64,000 nucleotides of DNA from Diadema antillarum (Eukaryota), in NCBI RefSeq assembly GCF_040938485.1, contig NW_027271458.1:186001-250000 (forward strand), written 5' to 3'. Each line of letters opens with the position of its first letter. The stretch's first letter is position 1. Shown here piece by piece: positions 31,401 to 37,400 of this stretch. A program made the position numbers.

Positions 31401-34400
31401 ACTGTCGTTTAGTAAACTAGCTATTATAAACACGATAAACATGCTTGTAACATTGCTCACTTAAACGATGTTTATTTGCTCTAATCTGTGTACATACTTT
31501 CTCAACTTCTGCACTAAATTATGATTATCCACAGCCTGCCAAGATTCTTTTTAAACGATATAATAATGTGTACTTTATTCTCTTAAACATGAAGTTGTTA
31601 GCTTTGAGGTTCGAGAAAAAAATATTAACTTACTGTTCAAGAAATATTTTATGATATCCTAAGTTGTTTGTGCTGTGTACTGATATTGTAAATTGCAGGG
31701 ACGTCTTAACAACTAACTTCTACCTTCCTTTTTTTTGCGAATTGCATAGCTGATGCCATCTTGACTACTTTAAATGGGTGTGGTAATTGTTTCACTGAAC
31801 ACTATTAACTGTGCGCCCTGGCACCGACTTCAAAATGGCGTGGCAGCGGTGGATATCGCGACAACCGTCTTTTTTTTTTCCGCCAACCATATCTCTGCCT
31901 TGTAAATCTTAGGGCCTCATTAATCAAATTGAAATGGGATTCCCGTTGCTGCATGAGTTTATTTTGCAAAGAAAACAAACAAACAAACAAACAAACTAAA
32001 AATGTATTCACGATCGTAAGAGACAAATATCATCACTTTTAAGATTTACTTACACAGGATTACACCATTCCATCGGTGGGTTTATTGGAATTTGGCGGAC
32101 ATATAGTTGATATGAAACTGATGTTTCTTTGACTACAGATGATGCCAATTTCTATGACTTGGGGCTTATATCCTTTCATAGATCTTGTAATCTTGTAGAA
32201 CAACAAGGAAGAACGTAAACATTCAGAGTAAAATACAGAAAAAAGGTGTATTTTCACAAAGATTTAATTTCTAACGCATTCCAAAGCGCGGTTTGGCGGC
32301 CTTTCATTATCTCGTTTTCTACAATATGTCTAATAAGTTGTTCTTCATGTATACTTTTACCAATCGATTTAAGAGTTTCATTCTACCCCACCCCCCATTT
32401 CCCTTTCCATCTTGCTCCTTCATTTCCAATCGATTACATGTGTTCGCAAATTTTCTCATGCGATGGGAAGTAATCTTGTCTATGGGACTTCAACTGCCAT
32501 TTTAATAATTCAATATGAAAAAAACCCCACAATTGAATGAATTTGAAAGGGTCCGTATCACTTTCCCTTCTTTTGCTTTTGCATCGCATCCCTCATGACC
32601 ATTTCCCCCTCGAATCCTGTTTCCCATAACTCTGTTCTGTTTGAAAAGTAGAAAGATGATAATGCATGGGAACAGAAGTGAGAATAAAGGGGCTCTCAAA
32701 TCGATTATGGATAGTTGATCTATCATTCGGTTGAGTATAACGTTATGAATGGTTAGAGCAAGGATCGAAGAGTATTTATTGATGTATATATCAGGCAAAA
32801 TAGGAAAAAATGAAATTATCAAGTGTTACAATATAAATACAAATAATACAAATTGTATGTGTTGCATCAGAAACACAAAGAAATAATGATAAGTGATGTA
32901 TGCGTATACGTACAAATTGATATATTCATATCGTGTCATTAACGTTCTCTTGGAATTTTGAAATATATAGACAATATTATGTCAAAATGTACTATCAAAG
33001 TAAATTACATGATTCATTTTGTACCTTTTTGAGTTGAGCTTTTTTACTTGAACAAGGGGTATCACTGTCTGGAATATATCGGCATGAAGTTGAGGTTGGC
33101 TACTCTGGTGTATAATGTAATTGAAAATGTAATATATTCTTATTGTTGATAAAGTCCCTAGCTTTGATAAGATGATGATTGTACATGAACCGTTCTTCTA
33201 ATGTTCCATGGCTAAGAATAATTGCCACTCTCACATATGGCTGCTTTTAGAAGTTTTTATAGATGTTTCATAAATGTATACTGACTTTACCTATTAAGAG
33301 AACACACTTAGAAAAAGAATATATACATGTCTGACAAATGTTATAAAACCACTTTGAAATATCATCACATCTGAGCTAGTCTCCCAAAGGCTTGTCTCCA
33401 TTTCTTTTTCCTTACTCTCTCTCTCTCTCTCTCCTATCTCTCTTGAAAGAGAGAAAAAAGTACTAATTCCACTGGAATACTGCTGCTCAATGATGACTCG
33501 TCATTGGCTACCTTAATTACGCGTGCGCAGGTGCTCCGAAGCCATTTCATAACCTCAGAGTCAGGCAGCTTTATAACATAATAGTTCCAGTGAGTATTGT
33601 CTCCGACGTTGATAATTACTAGCTCAATCTTCAATCTTGCAAAATGCCCTATGATTACTGACTGTCGCTGAACGTTTACAGTCAATATCAGGGAGCTTTT
33701 ATACAACAAAGCATGGGATATTAGCAACGGGATAAAGGAACCTACATTTTTTTAATGGGACGTTAAAATATCGAAAAATTAATAATTATAAGTATAAGAA
33801 TGCCAGTACATTTACGTCAGAAAAGGAATCTTCAGTCATCTAACTTCAGATAAGGCCAAATCAAATCCGATTCAAAGATCTGCAGTAGAAGATACTTTAA
33901 CGTTAAAGTGATGTCATCATTCGTTCATAAGGGGAATATCTTCTAATATACAAGAGATTTATTCAAATAAACCAGTAGGCCCCAGTCGTGTCGTAGGCCT
34001 ATGTGCTTTGCTTCAGACTAGTTTTAAGGTCACAAGAGAGAGGTATTTGCTCCCTAGCCATACGCATGCAGAAGCATCCTACTTTCAAGAGAAGGTTGTG
34101 GTAAATTGCATCCCTATAAACTGAAAAAAGTGGATCCGTTAGAAAGTGCAATTCGTTTGCCTGCAATATGAAATATCTCTACTTCAATGTGTGTTTCTTT
34201 TTGCAGGACATAAACAGCAATGACAACACCTGCCTTTACCACATTAACAAGCGTTCAACTGGTAATGCTGCTTTCATACTTAGAAAGAGGGGAAAGCAGT
34301 CCCACTTAAGTAGTATTCACCGCTTCGTCTGCAACAGATACCGAAGTAGACAAAATATTGTGGAAAACCATTGAAACCACGCCATATGCTAAGACGATGT

Positions 34401-37400
34401 TTGGGAAAGAAGTTACAACGCAAATTCCTGGAGGGTACTCCGGGAGCAGAGACCGGTTGACCACGCCTTTAGAAGAAATATCGTCATCTTCGAGTGCAAT
34501 TTTCCAGGACTCTCTGGCGCTTTCAAGTGATGGGTATGAGTCTGATATCAGTACGAAAGTCCCATTGTCATCTGGCTGGTCATGGCAAGCCATAACGTGG
34601 TCCTGGTGGCTGATCCTTCAGATGTTCACCGCCATGCTGGGTATTATGGGCAATTCCCTGGTGATCATCGTCTTTTTCACCCGAAGACAACTCAGTTGCT
34701 CCACAGATACCCTGACTGGTGCTCTGGCTGGGGCCGACCTTCTCGCGTCCGTCTTTATGATACCACACCCACTTCCACTCACGGTCCCTTCGTCAGTTCT
34801 CGGGCAGCTGCACTGCAAAGTAGTGTACACCTCCATGTTTCTGTGGGTGTCATTCGATGCGTCAATATTCACCCTAACGGCCATCGCTGTGGAAAGGTAC
34901 ATCGCTGTGGCTTTTCCCTTCCATTCTAAGCATTTATTAACCCGAAAGAGGGTCATCATTGTAATTGTAGCGAATTGGATCTTTGGTTTCATGGTCGAAT
35001 CTTTTTTATTCAATGTCGCAAAAGTTGTTAAATCTTCGAACAACTGCGCTTCGGTGTTTCCTTCTAACGATGTCCAAATGCTCATCGGAACGATTTTGTT
35101 CTTAATGCTCTTCATTATACCCGCCTTGCTGTCACTTACCATGCAGGCAATGACGGCCCACGCCCTGCACCGCCAATCTCTGGTGTTCCGTAAAGAGGGC
35201 AATCAGGAGGGTGGATCGAACCCGTCGGCTAGGCATTTAGCAGCCAGGAAACGCGTCTTACAGATGCTGTTCATAGTGGTTCTCGTCTTCATCGTGTGCT
35301 GGGGTCCATCACAGTGTGTCTATTTCGTCTTTAACCTAGGATTGCTCCCAGACTCGTACTGGTATAGTCCATTAAACAACGCACTTGTTGTCCTTTCTTG
35401 TGGAAACTCCTGTGCCAATCCGATCATCTACACCGTTCGTTACCCAGAGTTCCGCACGGCTATCGGAGAGCTGTTTTCCGCAAAGAAAGGGAAATCTACG
35501 GCACCGTTATTCAGTGAGCGGACAGAGGGGAAACCTGTAAAATCTATACAGAGCGTTGATGCGTAGCCTATATTTGAACTTAATGTAATGTAAGATTTAT
35601 GGCAATGGTAAATTTCTTCACTTTATGAAAAATTAAATTAAATATTTTTGAAATAAACATTAGTATATAAAATGATAAAATACTCGTCATTTTAGCGTTG
35701 ACTTACCAGTGGACGTACATCAACGTGATCAAAGATATATTTTGGCCACAGCTTTTTTATCGATAATATGTATTGGTGGAAATATTGGGGTAAAAAAATG
35801 TTATTGTGTGCATTGTTTTTTGGGGTTTTTTTTTTTTTTTTGGTCCTAAATTGCGAGGAACAACTCCCGGCTCTTTGCTTGACAACGTTCTGCACCAAGT
35901 TATCTTTCTCTTTCTTTGACAAAAGGCATCTTTTTTGTTGACATGCATCCATATTCACCGCTACCTTTTATGAAAATGACATACTGAAACCATGCTGGAG
36001 TTTGGATCAGAATTAAACAGGCCGTGTACAATTTTCGTTTGATATGGAATACTCTATTCACATACACAATATTTATTTATAACATCTTCATATACTTCAA
36101 CAATAAGAATTTCCTCTTGCGTGTTCGGAAAAAGTATTTTATGCATGGTATTTAGGATTGGTTTACACATTTTAGTCATGAACTGTCAAAACTAGCTATC
36201 ATAAACACGACAAACAGCGACAAACATGCTTGTAACCTAGCTCACATAAAGGCTCTTTATTTGCACTATTCTGCGTACATGCTTTTTCAACTTCCGCACT
36301 AAGTTGATTTTATCCCCAGCTTGCAAAGTTTCTTTTTTAAACAATATAATAATGTATTCTTTATTCTCTTGAACATCAAGTTCTTAACCTGAGGGTTCAA
36401 GAAAAAAAAAACAACTTAACTTACTGTTTAAGATATAAACTTATGATATCATAAAGTGTTTGTGCTGTGGACTGATATTGTAAATTGCAAGGATGTCGTA
36501 ACAATGTAATAACCACTATCATCCATTTTTTTTTTGCGAGTTGCATAGCTAATGCCATCTTGACTACTTCTAATAGGTATGCTAATCGTTTCACTGAACA
36601 CTATTAACTGTACGCCCTGGCACAGACTTCAAAATGACGTGGTAACGGTGGATATCGCGACAACTTTTTTATTTTTTTTTTTTTTTTGCCCACCATATCT
36701 CCGCCTTGTAAATTTTAGGGCCTCATTGATCAACTTGAAATGGGATTCCCGTTGCTCCATGAGTTTATTCTGTAAAGAAAACAAACAAACTAAATGCATT
36801 TACGATATTATACCTTAAAATTTGATCTTACATGAACCAGACGAATCGATAAATGCACACTCACACGCACACACACATAAACACACACACACAATATGAA
36901 CGTTCTTGAGAGACAAATATCATCACATTTAAGATTTACTTACACATAACAGATTACACCATTCCATTGGTGGGTTTATTGGAATTTGGTGGATATGGTC
37001 GACATGAAACTAATATTTCTTCACTACAGATTATTCCAATGTCTCTGACGAGGGGCTTATAACCTTTCACAGATCTTGTAATCTTGTAGAACAAGGAAGA
37101 ACGAAGATATTAAGAATAAAATACCTGAAAAAAAGGTGTATTTTACCAAGATTTAATTTCTATCACATTCCAAAGCGAGGTTTGGCAGGCCTTACATTCT
37201 CTCGTCTTTCCCCTATATGTCTAATAATTTGTTTTTCATGTGTACTTTTACCAATCGATTTCAGGGTTTTATTCTACCCCCACCCCATTTCCCTTTCCAT
37301 CTTGCTCCTTCATTTCCAGTCGATGACATGTGTTCGTAAATTTTCTCTTGCGATGGGAAGTAATCCACTCTATGGGACTTCAACTGTCATTTTAATAAAT

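What the first reader, a model, noticed from the sequence alone, without database searches (positions are those of the whole stretch)
31790..36770. Fossil terminal exons of the neighbouring RTN4IP1-like gene inside the GPCR array
Seen: 31830-31963 and 36629-36769 (minus strand) align to the real last exon at 61125-61250, including the acceptor position, EAL.FTR, KTVV/VV and the stop position, with similarity continuing into the 3' UTR. Both lie ~1 kb after a copy-2-type GPCR end, in the same convergent orientation as copy 6 and RTN4IP1; copies 2 and 6 also share N-terminal and TM4 sequence. Inference: an early duplication unit ran from a GPCR through the 3' end of its neighbour, seeding the array. 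The orphan exons could act as distal alternative last exons or antisense terminators; the 36.7-kb copy keeps its AG.
Basis: partly seen in the sequence, partly recalled or inferred. Interest (0 to 1): 0.65.

Follow-up and report, generated by a model that had tools for sequence, protein, structure and literature searches.

The report
Leftover gene end marking an old duplication
Two decayed copies of the last exon of a neighbouring RTN4IP1-like gene sit inside a tandem array of receptor genes, apparently as dead leftovers of the duplication that built most of the array, which is a common by-product of tandem duplication.

Summary
The last exon of the minus-strand RTN4IP1-like gene (61125-61250) has two degraded copies at 36629-36769 and 31830-31963. 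Both beat all 200 shuffled controls. A profile of the two relic regions matches 60452-61301 at E=1.3e-38, covering the exon, the acceptor and about 670 bp of 3' flank.

The two relics are not independent. They lie in a roughly 4.8-kb unit that was duplicated later. GPCR copy 3 is a hybrid, copy-4-like at its 5' end and copy-2-like at its 3' end, as unequal crossing-over would produce.

Copies 4 and 5 keep part of the same 3' flank in the same position but have lost the exon. All four units read GPCR, flank relic, X, Y. Copies 2-5 form a clade in the 3' tree with 93% support.

So one tandem duplication, ending in the last RTN4IP1 intron, most likely founded copies 2-5. Copy 1 shows no relic, and the tree is unrooted.

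I found no sign of function:
- One relic has lost its AG and its reading frame.
- Differences between the two relics are 1 synonymous to 6 non-synonymous codons.
- Flank identity is at or below the neutral level.

This is an ordinary partial-gene duplicate. How often the segment occurs across the genome, synteny and transcription could not be tested.

The parts
61125..61250 (-). Real last exon of the RTN4IP1-like gene (41 codons plus TGA)
   Evidence: Its only PDB match is 2VN8_A (RTN4IP1), residues 341-372 of 375, E=0.001. It matches Pfam ADH_zinc_N_2 positions 103-134 of 134 at E=2.4e-5, below the whole-protein cut-off because it is a fragment.
60452..61124 (-). 3' flank of the real gene (UTR and beyond) that is homologous to the relic regions
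   Evidence: The nhmmer profile of the copy-2 and copy-3 downstream regions aligns to 60452-61301 at E=1.3e-38. AATAAA/ATTAAA hexamers lie at +271 and +308 after the stop.
61251..61758 (-). Last intron of the RTN4IP1-like gene, with donor GT at 61758-61757 and acceptor AG at 61252-61251. A MITE-like insert occupies 61341-61650.
   Evidence: Read directly. No significant similarity to the relic junctions beyond low-complexity sequence.
61759..61851 (-). Penultimate exon of the RTN4IP1-like gene (31 codons). It is absent from the relics.
   Evidence: Frame and splice sites were read. No Pfam hit on its own. Nothing from 61300-64000 occurs elsewhere in the window except the MITE.
36629..36769 (-). 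Relic exon, 36.7-kb copy. It keeps the AG (36771-36770), a pyrimidine tract, 46 open codons and the stop at the ancestral position.
31830..31963 (-). Relic exon, 31.9-kb copy. The AG has become AA at the ancestral acceptor position, and the frame is broken before the ancestral stop.
31354..31829 (-). 3'-flank relic of the copy-2 unit
   Evidence: Colinear BLAST hits and profile alignment.
36130..36628 (-). 3'-flank relic of the copy-3 unit. The left end is approximate, taken from the offset of the copy-2/copy-3 alignment.
41712..41991 (-). 3'-flank relic of the copy-4 unit. The exon part is missing.
   Evidence: The copy-2/3 profile hits 41739-41958 at E=3.5e-7. Alignment A1. Extent taken, where it is a member of the profile by construction.
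48257..48669 (-). 3'-flank relic of the copy-5 unit. The exon part is missing.
   Evidence: The copy-2/3 profile hits 48257-48636 at E=1.6e-15..
29513..30907 (+). GPCR copy 2 (intronless class A receptor ORF)
   Evidence: PF00001 E=6.8e-44.
34310..35566 (+). GPCR copy 3, a copy-4/copy-2 hybrid with a switch near 34630-34830. It has an in-frame TAA at 34307-34309, after the 29th codon.
39350..40669 (+). GPCR copy 4
   Evidence: PF00001 E=3.3e-43.
45748..47067 (+). GPCR copy 5
   Evidence: PF00001 E=7.8e-44.
54137..55558 (+). GPCR copy 6, the copy that converges on the intact RTN4IP1-like gene
   Evidence: PF00001 E=5.9e-45. Best solved relative is the cholecystokinin A receptor, E=1.4e-31.
13344..14669 (+). 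GPCR copy 1, with no relic detectable downstream
   Evidence: PF00001 E=1.1e-44. Its downstream 14670-18500 matches no other copy's downstream region. No profile hit between copy 1 and copy 2 at E<0.1.
31965..32899 (+). Junction plus element X of the copy-2 unit. X follows the relic exon after about 120-150 bp and is the leftmost conserved element upstream of every GPCR.
   Evidence: The X profile also hits 36863-37785, 42699-43700, 51068-52038, 26757-27474 (E=1.3e-49) and 10672-11116 (E=4.4e-19).

Best explanation
The two 'fossil exons' are non-functional, unprocessed fragments of the neighbouring RTN4IP1-like gene. Each holds the last exon, its acceptor and several hundred bases of 3' flank.

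Inferred history:
1. The ancestral locus was a convergent pair, X-Y-GPCR on the plus strand facing RTN4IP1 on the minus strand.
2. One head-to-tail tandem duplication had its left end at or before element X and its right end in the last RTN4IP1 intron, within roughly 50-150 bp of the acceptor. It produced a second GPCR followed by an orphaned RTN4IP1 3' end. The right-hand copy (now copy 6) kept the intact gene.
3. The orphan-bearing unit multiplied into copies 2-5.
4. In the copy-4/5 lineage the exon part was lost, and only part of the 3' flank survives.
5. Later, unequal crossing-over between a copy-4-type and a copy-2-type gene produced hybrid copy 3 and, with it, the second copy of the relic.

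Shown directly: the homology, the unit order, the hybrid structure of copy 3, and decay patterns that look neutral. Inferred: co-duplication in a single event, and the absence of present function.
For: **Homology**
- Exon-level and profile-level matches, with 0 of 200 shuffles reaching either relic.

**The parent is the RTN4IP1-like gene, so the copy went from that gene into the array**
- The real exon matches only RTN4IP1 (2VN8_A, residues 341-372 of 375) and the last 32 positions of ADH_zinc_N_2.
- Neither relic translation matches ADH_zinc_N_2 in Pfam. The 36.7-kb relic, the only one searched against solved structures, has no match there.

**Unprocessed**
- Homology includes the acceptor position and runs to 60452, about 670 bp past the stop and beyond the hexamers at +271 and +308.
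- No penultimate exon or other RTN4IP1 sequence accompanies the relics.

**Same order and orientation in four units**
- GPCR, flank relic, X, Y.

**Tree**
- 3' partition: ((c2,c3)100,(c4,c5)100)93, excluding c1 and c6.

**Age**
- Relic-to-exon identity is 65-69%. GPCR third-codon-position identity is 69.9% for c2-c6 and 70.8% for c2-c4.
- Relic-to-relic identity is 89.6%, against 83.0% third-position identity for c2-c3.

**Second copy arose by unit duplication**
- 29516-33582 aligns to 34175-38649 at 78-85%.
- Copy 3 switches from 91-97% identity to copy 4 to 90-97% identity to copy 2 near 34630-34830.

**Decay**
- The 31.9-kb copy lost its AG and its frame.
- Relic-to-relic codon differences are 1 synonymous to 6 non-synonymous.
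- Flank-relic identity between lineages is 50-59%, no higher than neutral.
Against: - Homology is not continuous from the GPCR to the relic. About 440 bp after the copy-2 stop (30917-31353) and 4.9 kb after the copy-6 stop (55567-60452) match nothing in the other units. Co-duplication therefore rests on order, orientation and the tree, not on one unbroken alignment.
- The real spacing is 5.6 kb against 0.9-1.1 kb in the relic units. Only 2.2 kb of the excess is explained, by a local tandem duplication at 55905-58116.
- Copy 1 has X and Y but no relic.
- The trees are unrooted and no outgroup could be fetched.
- The intron side of the junction shows only low-complexity similarity, so the breakpoint is not pinned down.
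- The 36.7-kb copy still has an AG, a pyrimidine tract, an open frame in the right phase, the stop and an AATAAA at +264. Use as an exon is therefore not excluded by sequence alone.
- Whether the segment occurs elsewhere in the genome could not be tested.
Confidence: 0.8

Rival explanations
1. The RTN4IP1 3' fragment entered the array on its own, for example as filler DNA during break repair or as a small ectopic duplication. It landed next to the ancestor of copies 2-5 and was then carried along by later unit duplications.
For: No detectable homology links the GPCR-proximal flank of copy 2 or 3 with that of copy 6. Spacing differs about five-fold, 0.9-1.1 kb against 5.6 kb.
Against: The fragment has the same convergent orientation and the same side of the GPCR as the real gene. 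It is followed directly by element X, which is what a head-to-tail junction predicts. The source lies only 5.6 kb from the end copy of the same array. Neutral DNA at about 70% identity with indels would in any case fall below BLAST detection.
Confidence: 0.1
2. The relics, or at least the 36.7-kb copy and the flank block, are in use today. They could serve as a distal alternative last exon of RTN4IP1, as the terminal exon of an antisense transcript, or as terminators between tandem GPCR genes.
For: The 36.7-kb copy keeps an AG, a pyrimidine tract, 46 open codons in phase 0, the ancestral stop and an AATAAA at +264. A flank relic survives in four units.
Against: - The sister copy lost its AG and its frame.
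- Codon differences between the relics are 1 synonymous to 6 non-synonymous.
- Neither relic's peptide matches the parent's family, and the 36.7-kb relic matches no solved structure.
- Flank identity across lineages is 50-59%, below the roughly 70% seen at GPCR third codon positions.
- A splice from 61758 would have to skip 25 kb and run antisense through three GPCR genes.
- The GPCRs have their own AATAAA hexamers 66-115 nt after their stops.
Confidence: 0.06
3. The shared segment is a dispersed repeat or a retrocopy that happens to resemble the RTN4IP1 exon.
For: None from this window. It cannot be excluded genome-wide, because no eukaryotic genome collection was available.
Against: In the window the exon-level profile finds only the three sites. 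The next best hit has E=0.41 and is on the other strand. The flank profile finds only the five array-linked sites, with the next best at E=0.29. The real copy is a conserved coding exon of RTN4IP1. There are no joined upstream exons, and homology spans the acceptor and runs past the polyadenylation hexamers.
Confidence: 0.03

Closest known systems
Partial-gene capture by tandem duplication (gene fragments at duplication boundaries), as surveyed in Drosophila by Rogers et al. 2014, PMC4069613 (abstract and passages read)
   Same: A tandem duplication whose end falls inside a neighbouring gene leaves an orphaned piece of that gene beside the new copy. In that survey partial-gene duplications outnumber whole-gene ones (Table 1: 745 partial against 248 whole in D. 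yakuba, 462 against 296 in D. simulans).
   Different: Here the event is old, at about 65-69% identity. It is fixed in this assembly, has been propagated through later rounds of array expansion, and is a 3' fragment with no promoter. No chimeric gene is evident.
Hybrid genes made by unequal crossing-over in tandem arrays (textbook cases recalled from memory and not checked here: haemoglobin Lepore/anti-Lepore, red/green opsin hybrids)
   Same: Copy 3 has the 5' part and upstream region of one array member and the 3' part and downstream region of another, and the intergenic unit was duplicated with it.
   Different: The hybrid carries an in-frame stop after the 29th codon, so it may itself be a pseudogene. 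A later gene-conversion tract cannot be excluded as the cause of the mosaic instead of a single crossover.
Processed pseudogene (retrocopy)
   Same: A decayed, promoterless copy of coding sequence lying away from its parent.
   Different: There are no joined exons. The acceptor and flank beyond the polyadenylation hexamers are included. The A-run lies inside the coding part, not at the 3' end.

Membership tests
Unprocessed partial gene duplicate (gene fragment left by a tandem segmental duplication) | Significant sequence homology to an exon of a nearby parent gene | tested here: met
   E=3.8e-10 and 3.6e-4. 0 of 200 shuffles reach either score. Profile match E=1.3e-38.
Unprocessed partial gene duplicate (gene fragment left by a tandem segmental duplication) | Homology continues into non-coding genomic flank (splice acceptor, 3' flank) rather than stopping at mRNA boundaries | tested here: met
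   The AG lies at the same offset in the 36.7-kb copy. The alignment spans 60452-61301. The intron side beyond about 50 bp shows low complexity only.
Unprocessed partial gene duplicate (gene fragment left by a tandem segmental duplication) | The rest of the parent gene is absent from the copy | tested here: met
   61300-64000 has no match elsewhere in the window except a MITE-like element.
Unprocessed partial gene duplicate (gene fragment left by a tandem segmental duplication) | The fragment sits at the unit boundary, colinear with the co-duplicated neighbour and next to the head of the next unit | tested here: met
   The order GPCR, flank relic, (exon relic), X, Y holds in four units. Continuous homology from the GPCR to the relic was not found.
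Unprocessed partial gene duplicate (gene fragment left by a tandem segmental duplication) | Found only at the duplicated locus, not dispersed in the genome | not testable with these tools
   Only the window could be searched. No eukaryotic genome collection was available.
Processed pseudogene / retrocopy | Exons joined without introns, and homology limited to the mRNA with a 3' poly(A) | tested here: not met
   No penultimate exon is adjacent. The acceptor is retained. Homology runs about 360 bp past the hexamers at +271 and +308.
RTN4IP1 / medium-chain dehydrogenase-reductase family (identity of the parent gene) | C-terminal end of the zinc-type dehydrogenase fold, with closest similarity to RTN4IP1 | tested here: met
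   The last exon alone matches 2VN8_A residues 341-372 of 375 at E=0.001, the only PDB hit. It matches ADH_zinc_N_2 positions 103-134 of 134 at E=2.4e-5. The exon at 62216-62413 matches positions 24-57 weakly, E=0.052.
RTN4IP1 / medium-chain dehydrogenase-reductase family (identity of the parent gene) | Full-length domain architecture (N-terminal GroES-like domain plus Rossmann domain) | not tested
   The 5' exons lie outside the window.
Functional alternative terminal exon | Acceptor, in-phase open frame, stop and polyadenylation signal | tested here: inconclusive
   All are present in the 36.7-kb copy. The acceptor and frame are lost in the 31.9-kb copy.
Functional alternative terminal exon | Purifying selection on the coding part | tested here: not met
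   Differing codons between the relics are 1 synonymous to 6 non-synonymous. Between the real exon and each relic they are 5:15 and 5:16. Numbers are small.
Functional alternative terminal exon | Spliced transcripts that use it | not testable with these tools
   No expression data are available.

The most novel reading that the evidence does not exclude
The orphaned RTN4IP1 3' end was kept through array expansion because it supplies a ready-made terminal exon and polyadenylation unit on the minus strand. In this reading the 36.7-kb copy, with its intact AG, open frame, stop and AATAAA, now ends an antisense or read-through transcript that dampens the neighbouring GPCR genes, or it is spliced as a distal alternative end of RTN4IP1.
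Probability: 0.05. Interest if true: 0.45.

Novelty: new member of a known kind. Interest (0 to 1): 0.2.

Why it matters
The relic is a useful historical marker. It fixes the right-hand breakpoint of the duplication that founded GPCR copies 2-5 in the last RTN4IP1 intron. It also shows that these four genes descend from one unit, and it helps separate an old founding event from a later unequal crossover that made the hybrid copy 3.

For annotation, it warns that the two sites are pseudo-exons and not parts of a gene model, and that copy 3 carries a premature stop. Beyond this locus it adds nothing new in principle, because gene fragments at tandem-duplication boundaries are common.

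Tried and rejected
- **More relics.** I looked with a 3-sequence exon profile, a copy-2/3 downstream profile and a 5-sequence flank profile. No exon relic turned up near copies 1, 4 or 5, and no flank relic near copy 1. The best extra hits had E=0.41, 0.028 and 0.29, all on the wrong strand or out of place.
- **Intron homology at the junctions of all four units.** A small-database BLAST found only low-complexity matches.
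- **A tRNA-derived SINE replacing the exon in copies 4 and 5** (41959-42132 and 48637-48816). The box-like motifs are my recollection only. ARAGORN and Rfam found nothing in the window, and the segment occurs only at those two places.
- **Constraint on the conserved flank block.** Cross-lineage identity is 50-59%, so I dropped the idea.
- **Chance similarity.** Rejected by the shuffle control.
- **Penultimate exon and the 62216-62413 exon against PDB and Pfam, each alone.** No significant hit.
- **Literature.** A search for RTN4IP1 with tandem / GPCR / invertebrate listed nothing relevant among the 8 papers shown of 718 (listing only).

Not done, because the tools hold no eukaryotic genomes or were closed:
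- A whole-genome search for the segment.
- Synteny in related species.
- Homologue searches for an outgroup GPCR (search for homologous proteins, the search of protein representatives, viral and metagenome collections closed).
- A scan of the prokaryote-only genome-contig collection, which would not bear on the question.

The spliced RTN4IP1 model was searched exon by exon only, and the joined step was left out. The N run at 11583-11727 was left as it is. The window does not look human: the RTN4IP1-like exon is 16 of 32 residues identical to the human chain.

Full report
**What is in the window**

The window is 64 kb with 38.7% G+C and one N run at 11583-11727, which I left untouched. It does not look human.

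Six intronless class A (rhodopsin-type) GPCR reading frames lie on the plus strand:
- c1, 13344-14669
- c2, 29513-30907
- c3, 34310-35566
- c4, 39350-40669
- c5, 45748-47067
- c6, 54137-55558

All six match PF00001 at E≤1.1e-40. They were 6 of the 9 proteins sent in that call. The nearest solved relative of c6 is the cholecystokinin A receptor at E=1.4e-31, so they look like peptide receptors but belong to no named subfamily. The Atlas look-alikes agree only on the 7tm_1 family.

At the right end, on the minus strand, is the 3' part of an RTN4IP1-like gene.
- The last exon is 61125-61250 (41 codons plus TGA).
- The last intron is 61251-61758, with GT at 61758-61757 and AG at 61252-61251.
- The penultimate exon is 61759-61851.
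- A further exon lies at about 62216-62413.

I searched the exons one at a time and did not make or search a joined model. The last exon alone hits a single PDB sequence, human RTN4IP1 (2VN8_A, residues 341-372 of 375, E=0.001, 16 of 32 residues identical). It also matches the last 32 positions of Pfam ADH_zinc_N_2 at E=2.4e-5. The exon at 62216-62413 matches positions 24-57 of the same model weakly (E=0.052). The penultimate exon matches nothing on its own.

**Checking the observation**

BLASTN gave two significant matches plus colinear weaker hits in the 3' flank at nearly constant offsets:
- 61175-61253 vs 36694-36772: 76% over 79 nt, ungapped, E=3.8e-10.
- 61163-61236 vs 31875-31949: 72% over 75 nt, E=3.6e-4.

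With the real locus masked, the exon scores 57.2 and 38.3 bits at the two sites. The best hits of 200 dinucleotide-shuffled exons averaged 23.4 bits (sd 2.0, maximum 31.0), so 0 of 200 reach either value.

In a three-way alignment, exon identity is 87 of 126 for the 36.7-kb copy (15 gap columns, all in an expanded A-run). It is 82 of 126 for the 31.9-kb copy (8 gap columns) and 120 of 134 between the two relics.

The acceptor AG, the NEAL.FTR motif and the TGA sit at corresponding positions. The 36.7-kb copy keeps the AG (36771-36770) and is open for 46 codons to the ancestral stop. The 31.9-kb copy has AA at the acceptor position, and an indel puts the ancestral stop out of frame.

A profile built from the two relic regions matches 60452-61301 at E=1.3e-38 (125 bits). 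The homologous segment is therefore about 850 bp: the exon, at most about 50 bp of intron (low-complexity pyrimidine tract only), and about 670 bp beyond the stop.

**The two relics are one relic, copied**

The c2 unit and the c3 unit are tandem duplicates over about 4.8 kb:
- 29516-31070 with 34175-35723, 84.7%
- 31085-31987 with 35851-36793, 81.8%
- 31975-32930 with 36869-37803, 84.6%
- 32900-33582 with 37930-38649, 77.9%

Copy 3 is a mosaic. Its upstream region and first ~450-500 bp are 91-97% identical to c4 but only 67-78% identical to c2. From about 34630-34830 onward it is 90-97% identical to c2.

The trees agree. In the 5' partition c3 groups with c4 (91%) inside the c4/c5 clade (100%). 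In the 3' partition it groups with c2 (100%).

This is the product expected from unequal crossing-over between a c4-type and a c2-type gene, which duplicates the intergenic unit and the relic with it. A later conversion tract is an alternative for the 5' part.

Copy 3 also carries a 6-bp insertion that creates an in-frame TAA after the 29th codon, at 34307-34309.

**The relic is older than the c2/c4 split**

The same profile hits 48257-48636 (E=1.6e-15) and 41739-41958 (E=3.5e-7), downstream of c5 and c4. These hits cover only the 3'-flank part of the profile (columns 572-1009 and 800-1009). The exon columns are missing there.

No exon relic was found near c4, c5 or c1 with a three-sequence exon profile. 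The next best hit had E=0.41 and was on the wrong strand. In c4 and c5, homology stops about 65-110 bp short of where the stop codon would lie. It gives way to a segment found only at those two places.

To the right of the relic, all four units share element X (and the profile) and then element Y, which lies about 0.7-1.3 kb before each GPCR start. X is also present upstream of c2 (26757-27474, E=1.3e-49) and of c1 (10672-11116, E=4.4e-19).

So every GPCR has X-Y in front of it. In four units the RTN4IP1 fragment lies between a GPCR and the next X, always on the minus strand. That is the layout of a head-to-tail junction between a unit ending in the RTN4IP1 intron and a unit beginning at X.

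In the 3' partition, c2-c5 form a clade (93%) excluding c1 and c6.

The ages fit. Relic-to-exon identity is 65-69%. GPCR third-codon-position identity is 69.9% (c2-c6), 70.8% (c2-c4) and 67.6% (c1-c6). The relic pair is 89.6% identical, against 83.0% third-position identity for c2-c3.

**What argues against, or stays open**

- Homology is not continuous from the GPCR to the relic. The roughly 440 bp after the c2 stop and the 4.9 kb after the c6 stop match nothing in other units.
- The real gene lies 5.6 kb from c6, against 0.9-1.1 kb in the relic units. A local tandem duplication (55905-58116) explains 2.2 kb of the difference.
- Copy 1 has no detectable relic. The trees are unrooted, so it is not shown that this event 'seeded the array'.
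- The c2-c6 grouping in the 5' partition has only 56% support.
- The intron-side breakpoint cannot be located.
- I could not test whether the segment occurs elsewhere in the genome, whether related species share the layout, or whether anything is transcribed.

**Function**

Nothing points to present use.
- The relic peptides no longer match the parent family in Pfam, and the 36.7-kb relic, the one searched, matches no solved structure.
- One copy has lost its acceptor and its frame.
- Codons that differ between the two relics are 1 synonymous to 6 non-synonymous. Between the real exon and each relic they are 5:15 and 5:16.
- Flank relics of different lineages are only 50-59% identical in the five-way alignment, no better than neutral.
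- The GPCRs have their own AATAAA/ATTAAA hexamers 66-115 nt after their stops in c2, c3 and c6, so the relics probably lie outside their transcripts.

The 36.7-kb copy does retain every sequence signal of a terminal exon: an AG, a pyrimidine tract, a phase-0 open frame, a stop, and an AATAAA at +264 compared with +271 in the real gene. That can easily be chance survival in a 141-nt segment, but only RNA data can exclude use.

**Comparison with what is known**

Tandem duplications that end inside a neighbouring gene and leave a fragment are common. In the Drosophila survey by Rogers et al. 2014 (PMC4069613, abstract and passages read), partial-gene duplications outnumber whole-gene ones: 745 against 248 in D. 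yakuba and 462 against 296 in D. simulans.

The hybrid copy 3 resembles textbook unequal-crossover hybrids. Those examples are recalled from memory and were not checked here.

A retrocopy is excluded. There are no joined exons, the acceptor is retained, and the flank extends beyond the polyadenylation hexamers.

**Verdict**

The origin story is supported for copies 2-5 (confidence about 0.8). The functional speculation is unsupported. This is a new example of a known kind and of low general interest, though it is a useful marker for reconstructing this array and for keeping the two sites and copy 3 out of gene models.

Noticed in passing
34175-35566 (stop at 34307-34309; switch near 34630-34830): GPCR copy 3 is a hybrid: copy-4-like upstream region and 5' part, copy-2-like 3' part and downstream region. 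A 6-bp insertion creates an in-frame TAA after the 29th codon, so it is probably a pseudogene or N-terminally truncated.
   Followed up: yes
3872-10372: LTR retrotransposon on the minus strand. Gag-like and RT/RNase H frames lie at 5631-9029 (PF00078, PF17917, PF17919). It is flanked by 189-bp direct repeats that are 100% identical (3872-4060 and 10184-10372, TG...CA ends), which suggests a very recent insertion.
   Followed up: partly
12827-13141 and 61341-61650: A roughly 310-bp element with internal inverted repeats (MITE-like) is present upstream of GPCR copy 1 and inside the last RTN4IP1 intron, 73% identical. It is unrelated to the relic.
   Followed up: partly
11946-12052, 28690-28796, 33446-33573, 38561-38632, 44961-45042, 52768-52844; acceptor-like sites about 15 bp before the ATG, e.g. 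near 29500-29545: A conserved element Y of about 110-160 bp lies 0.7-1.3 kb upstream of all six GPCR frames. Copies 2, 3 and 6 have a pyrimidine tract plus CAG just before the start codon. Together these suggest a 5' UTR exon and intron in front of otherwise intronless genes.
   Followed up: partly
10672-11116, 26757-27474, 31965-32899, 36863-37785, 42699-43700, 51068-52038: Element X is a second conserved block 2.3-2.9 kb upstream of every GPCR copy. It marks the left part of the duplication unit.
   Followed up: partly
41959-42132 and 48637-48816 (minus strand): A segment with tRNA-like box motifs (my recollection only) replaces the exon relic in the copy-4 and copy-5 units. ARAGORN and Rfam found nothing, and it occurs only at these two places in the window.
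   Followed up: partly
48816-50487: A 1.67-kb segment is present in the copy-5 unit and absent from the copy-4 unit. Part of it (50297-50637) resembles 53113-53459 upstream of copy 6, so copy 4 may carry a deletion rather than copy 5 an insertion.
   Followed up: partly
55905-58116: A local tandem duplication of about 1.1 kb (91-93% identical) with a short palindrome at 56045-56090 lies between GPCR copy 6 and the RTN4IP1-like gene. It contains lysine/arginine/glutamate-rich open frames of unknown meaning.
   Followed up: no
963-1820 and 1976-2162: Tandem repeat with a period of about 265 bp, three or more copies, 94-97% identical.
   Followed up: no
63625-63999 (minus strand, runs off the window): An open frame of 124 codons that runs off the right edge of the window. 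It lies upstream of the RTN4IP1-like exons seen here, probably in an intron. To my recollection it resembles the C-terminal tail of a non-LTR retrotransposon ORF2. There was no Pfam hit.
   Followed up: no
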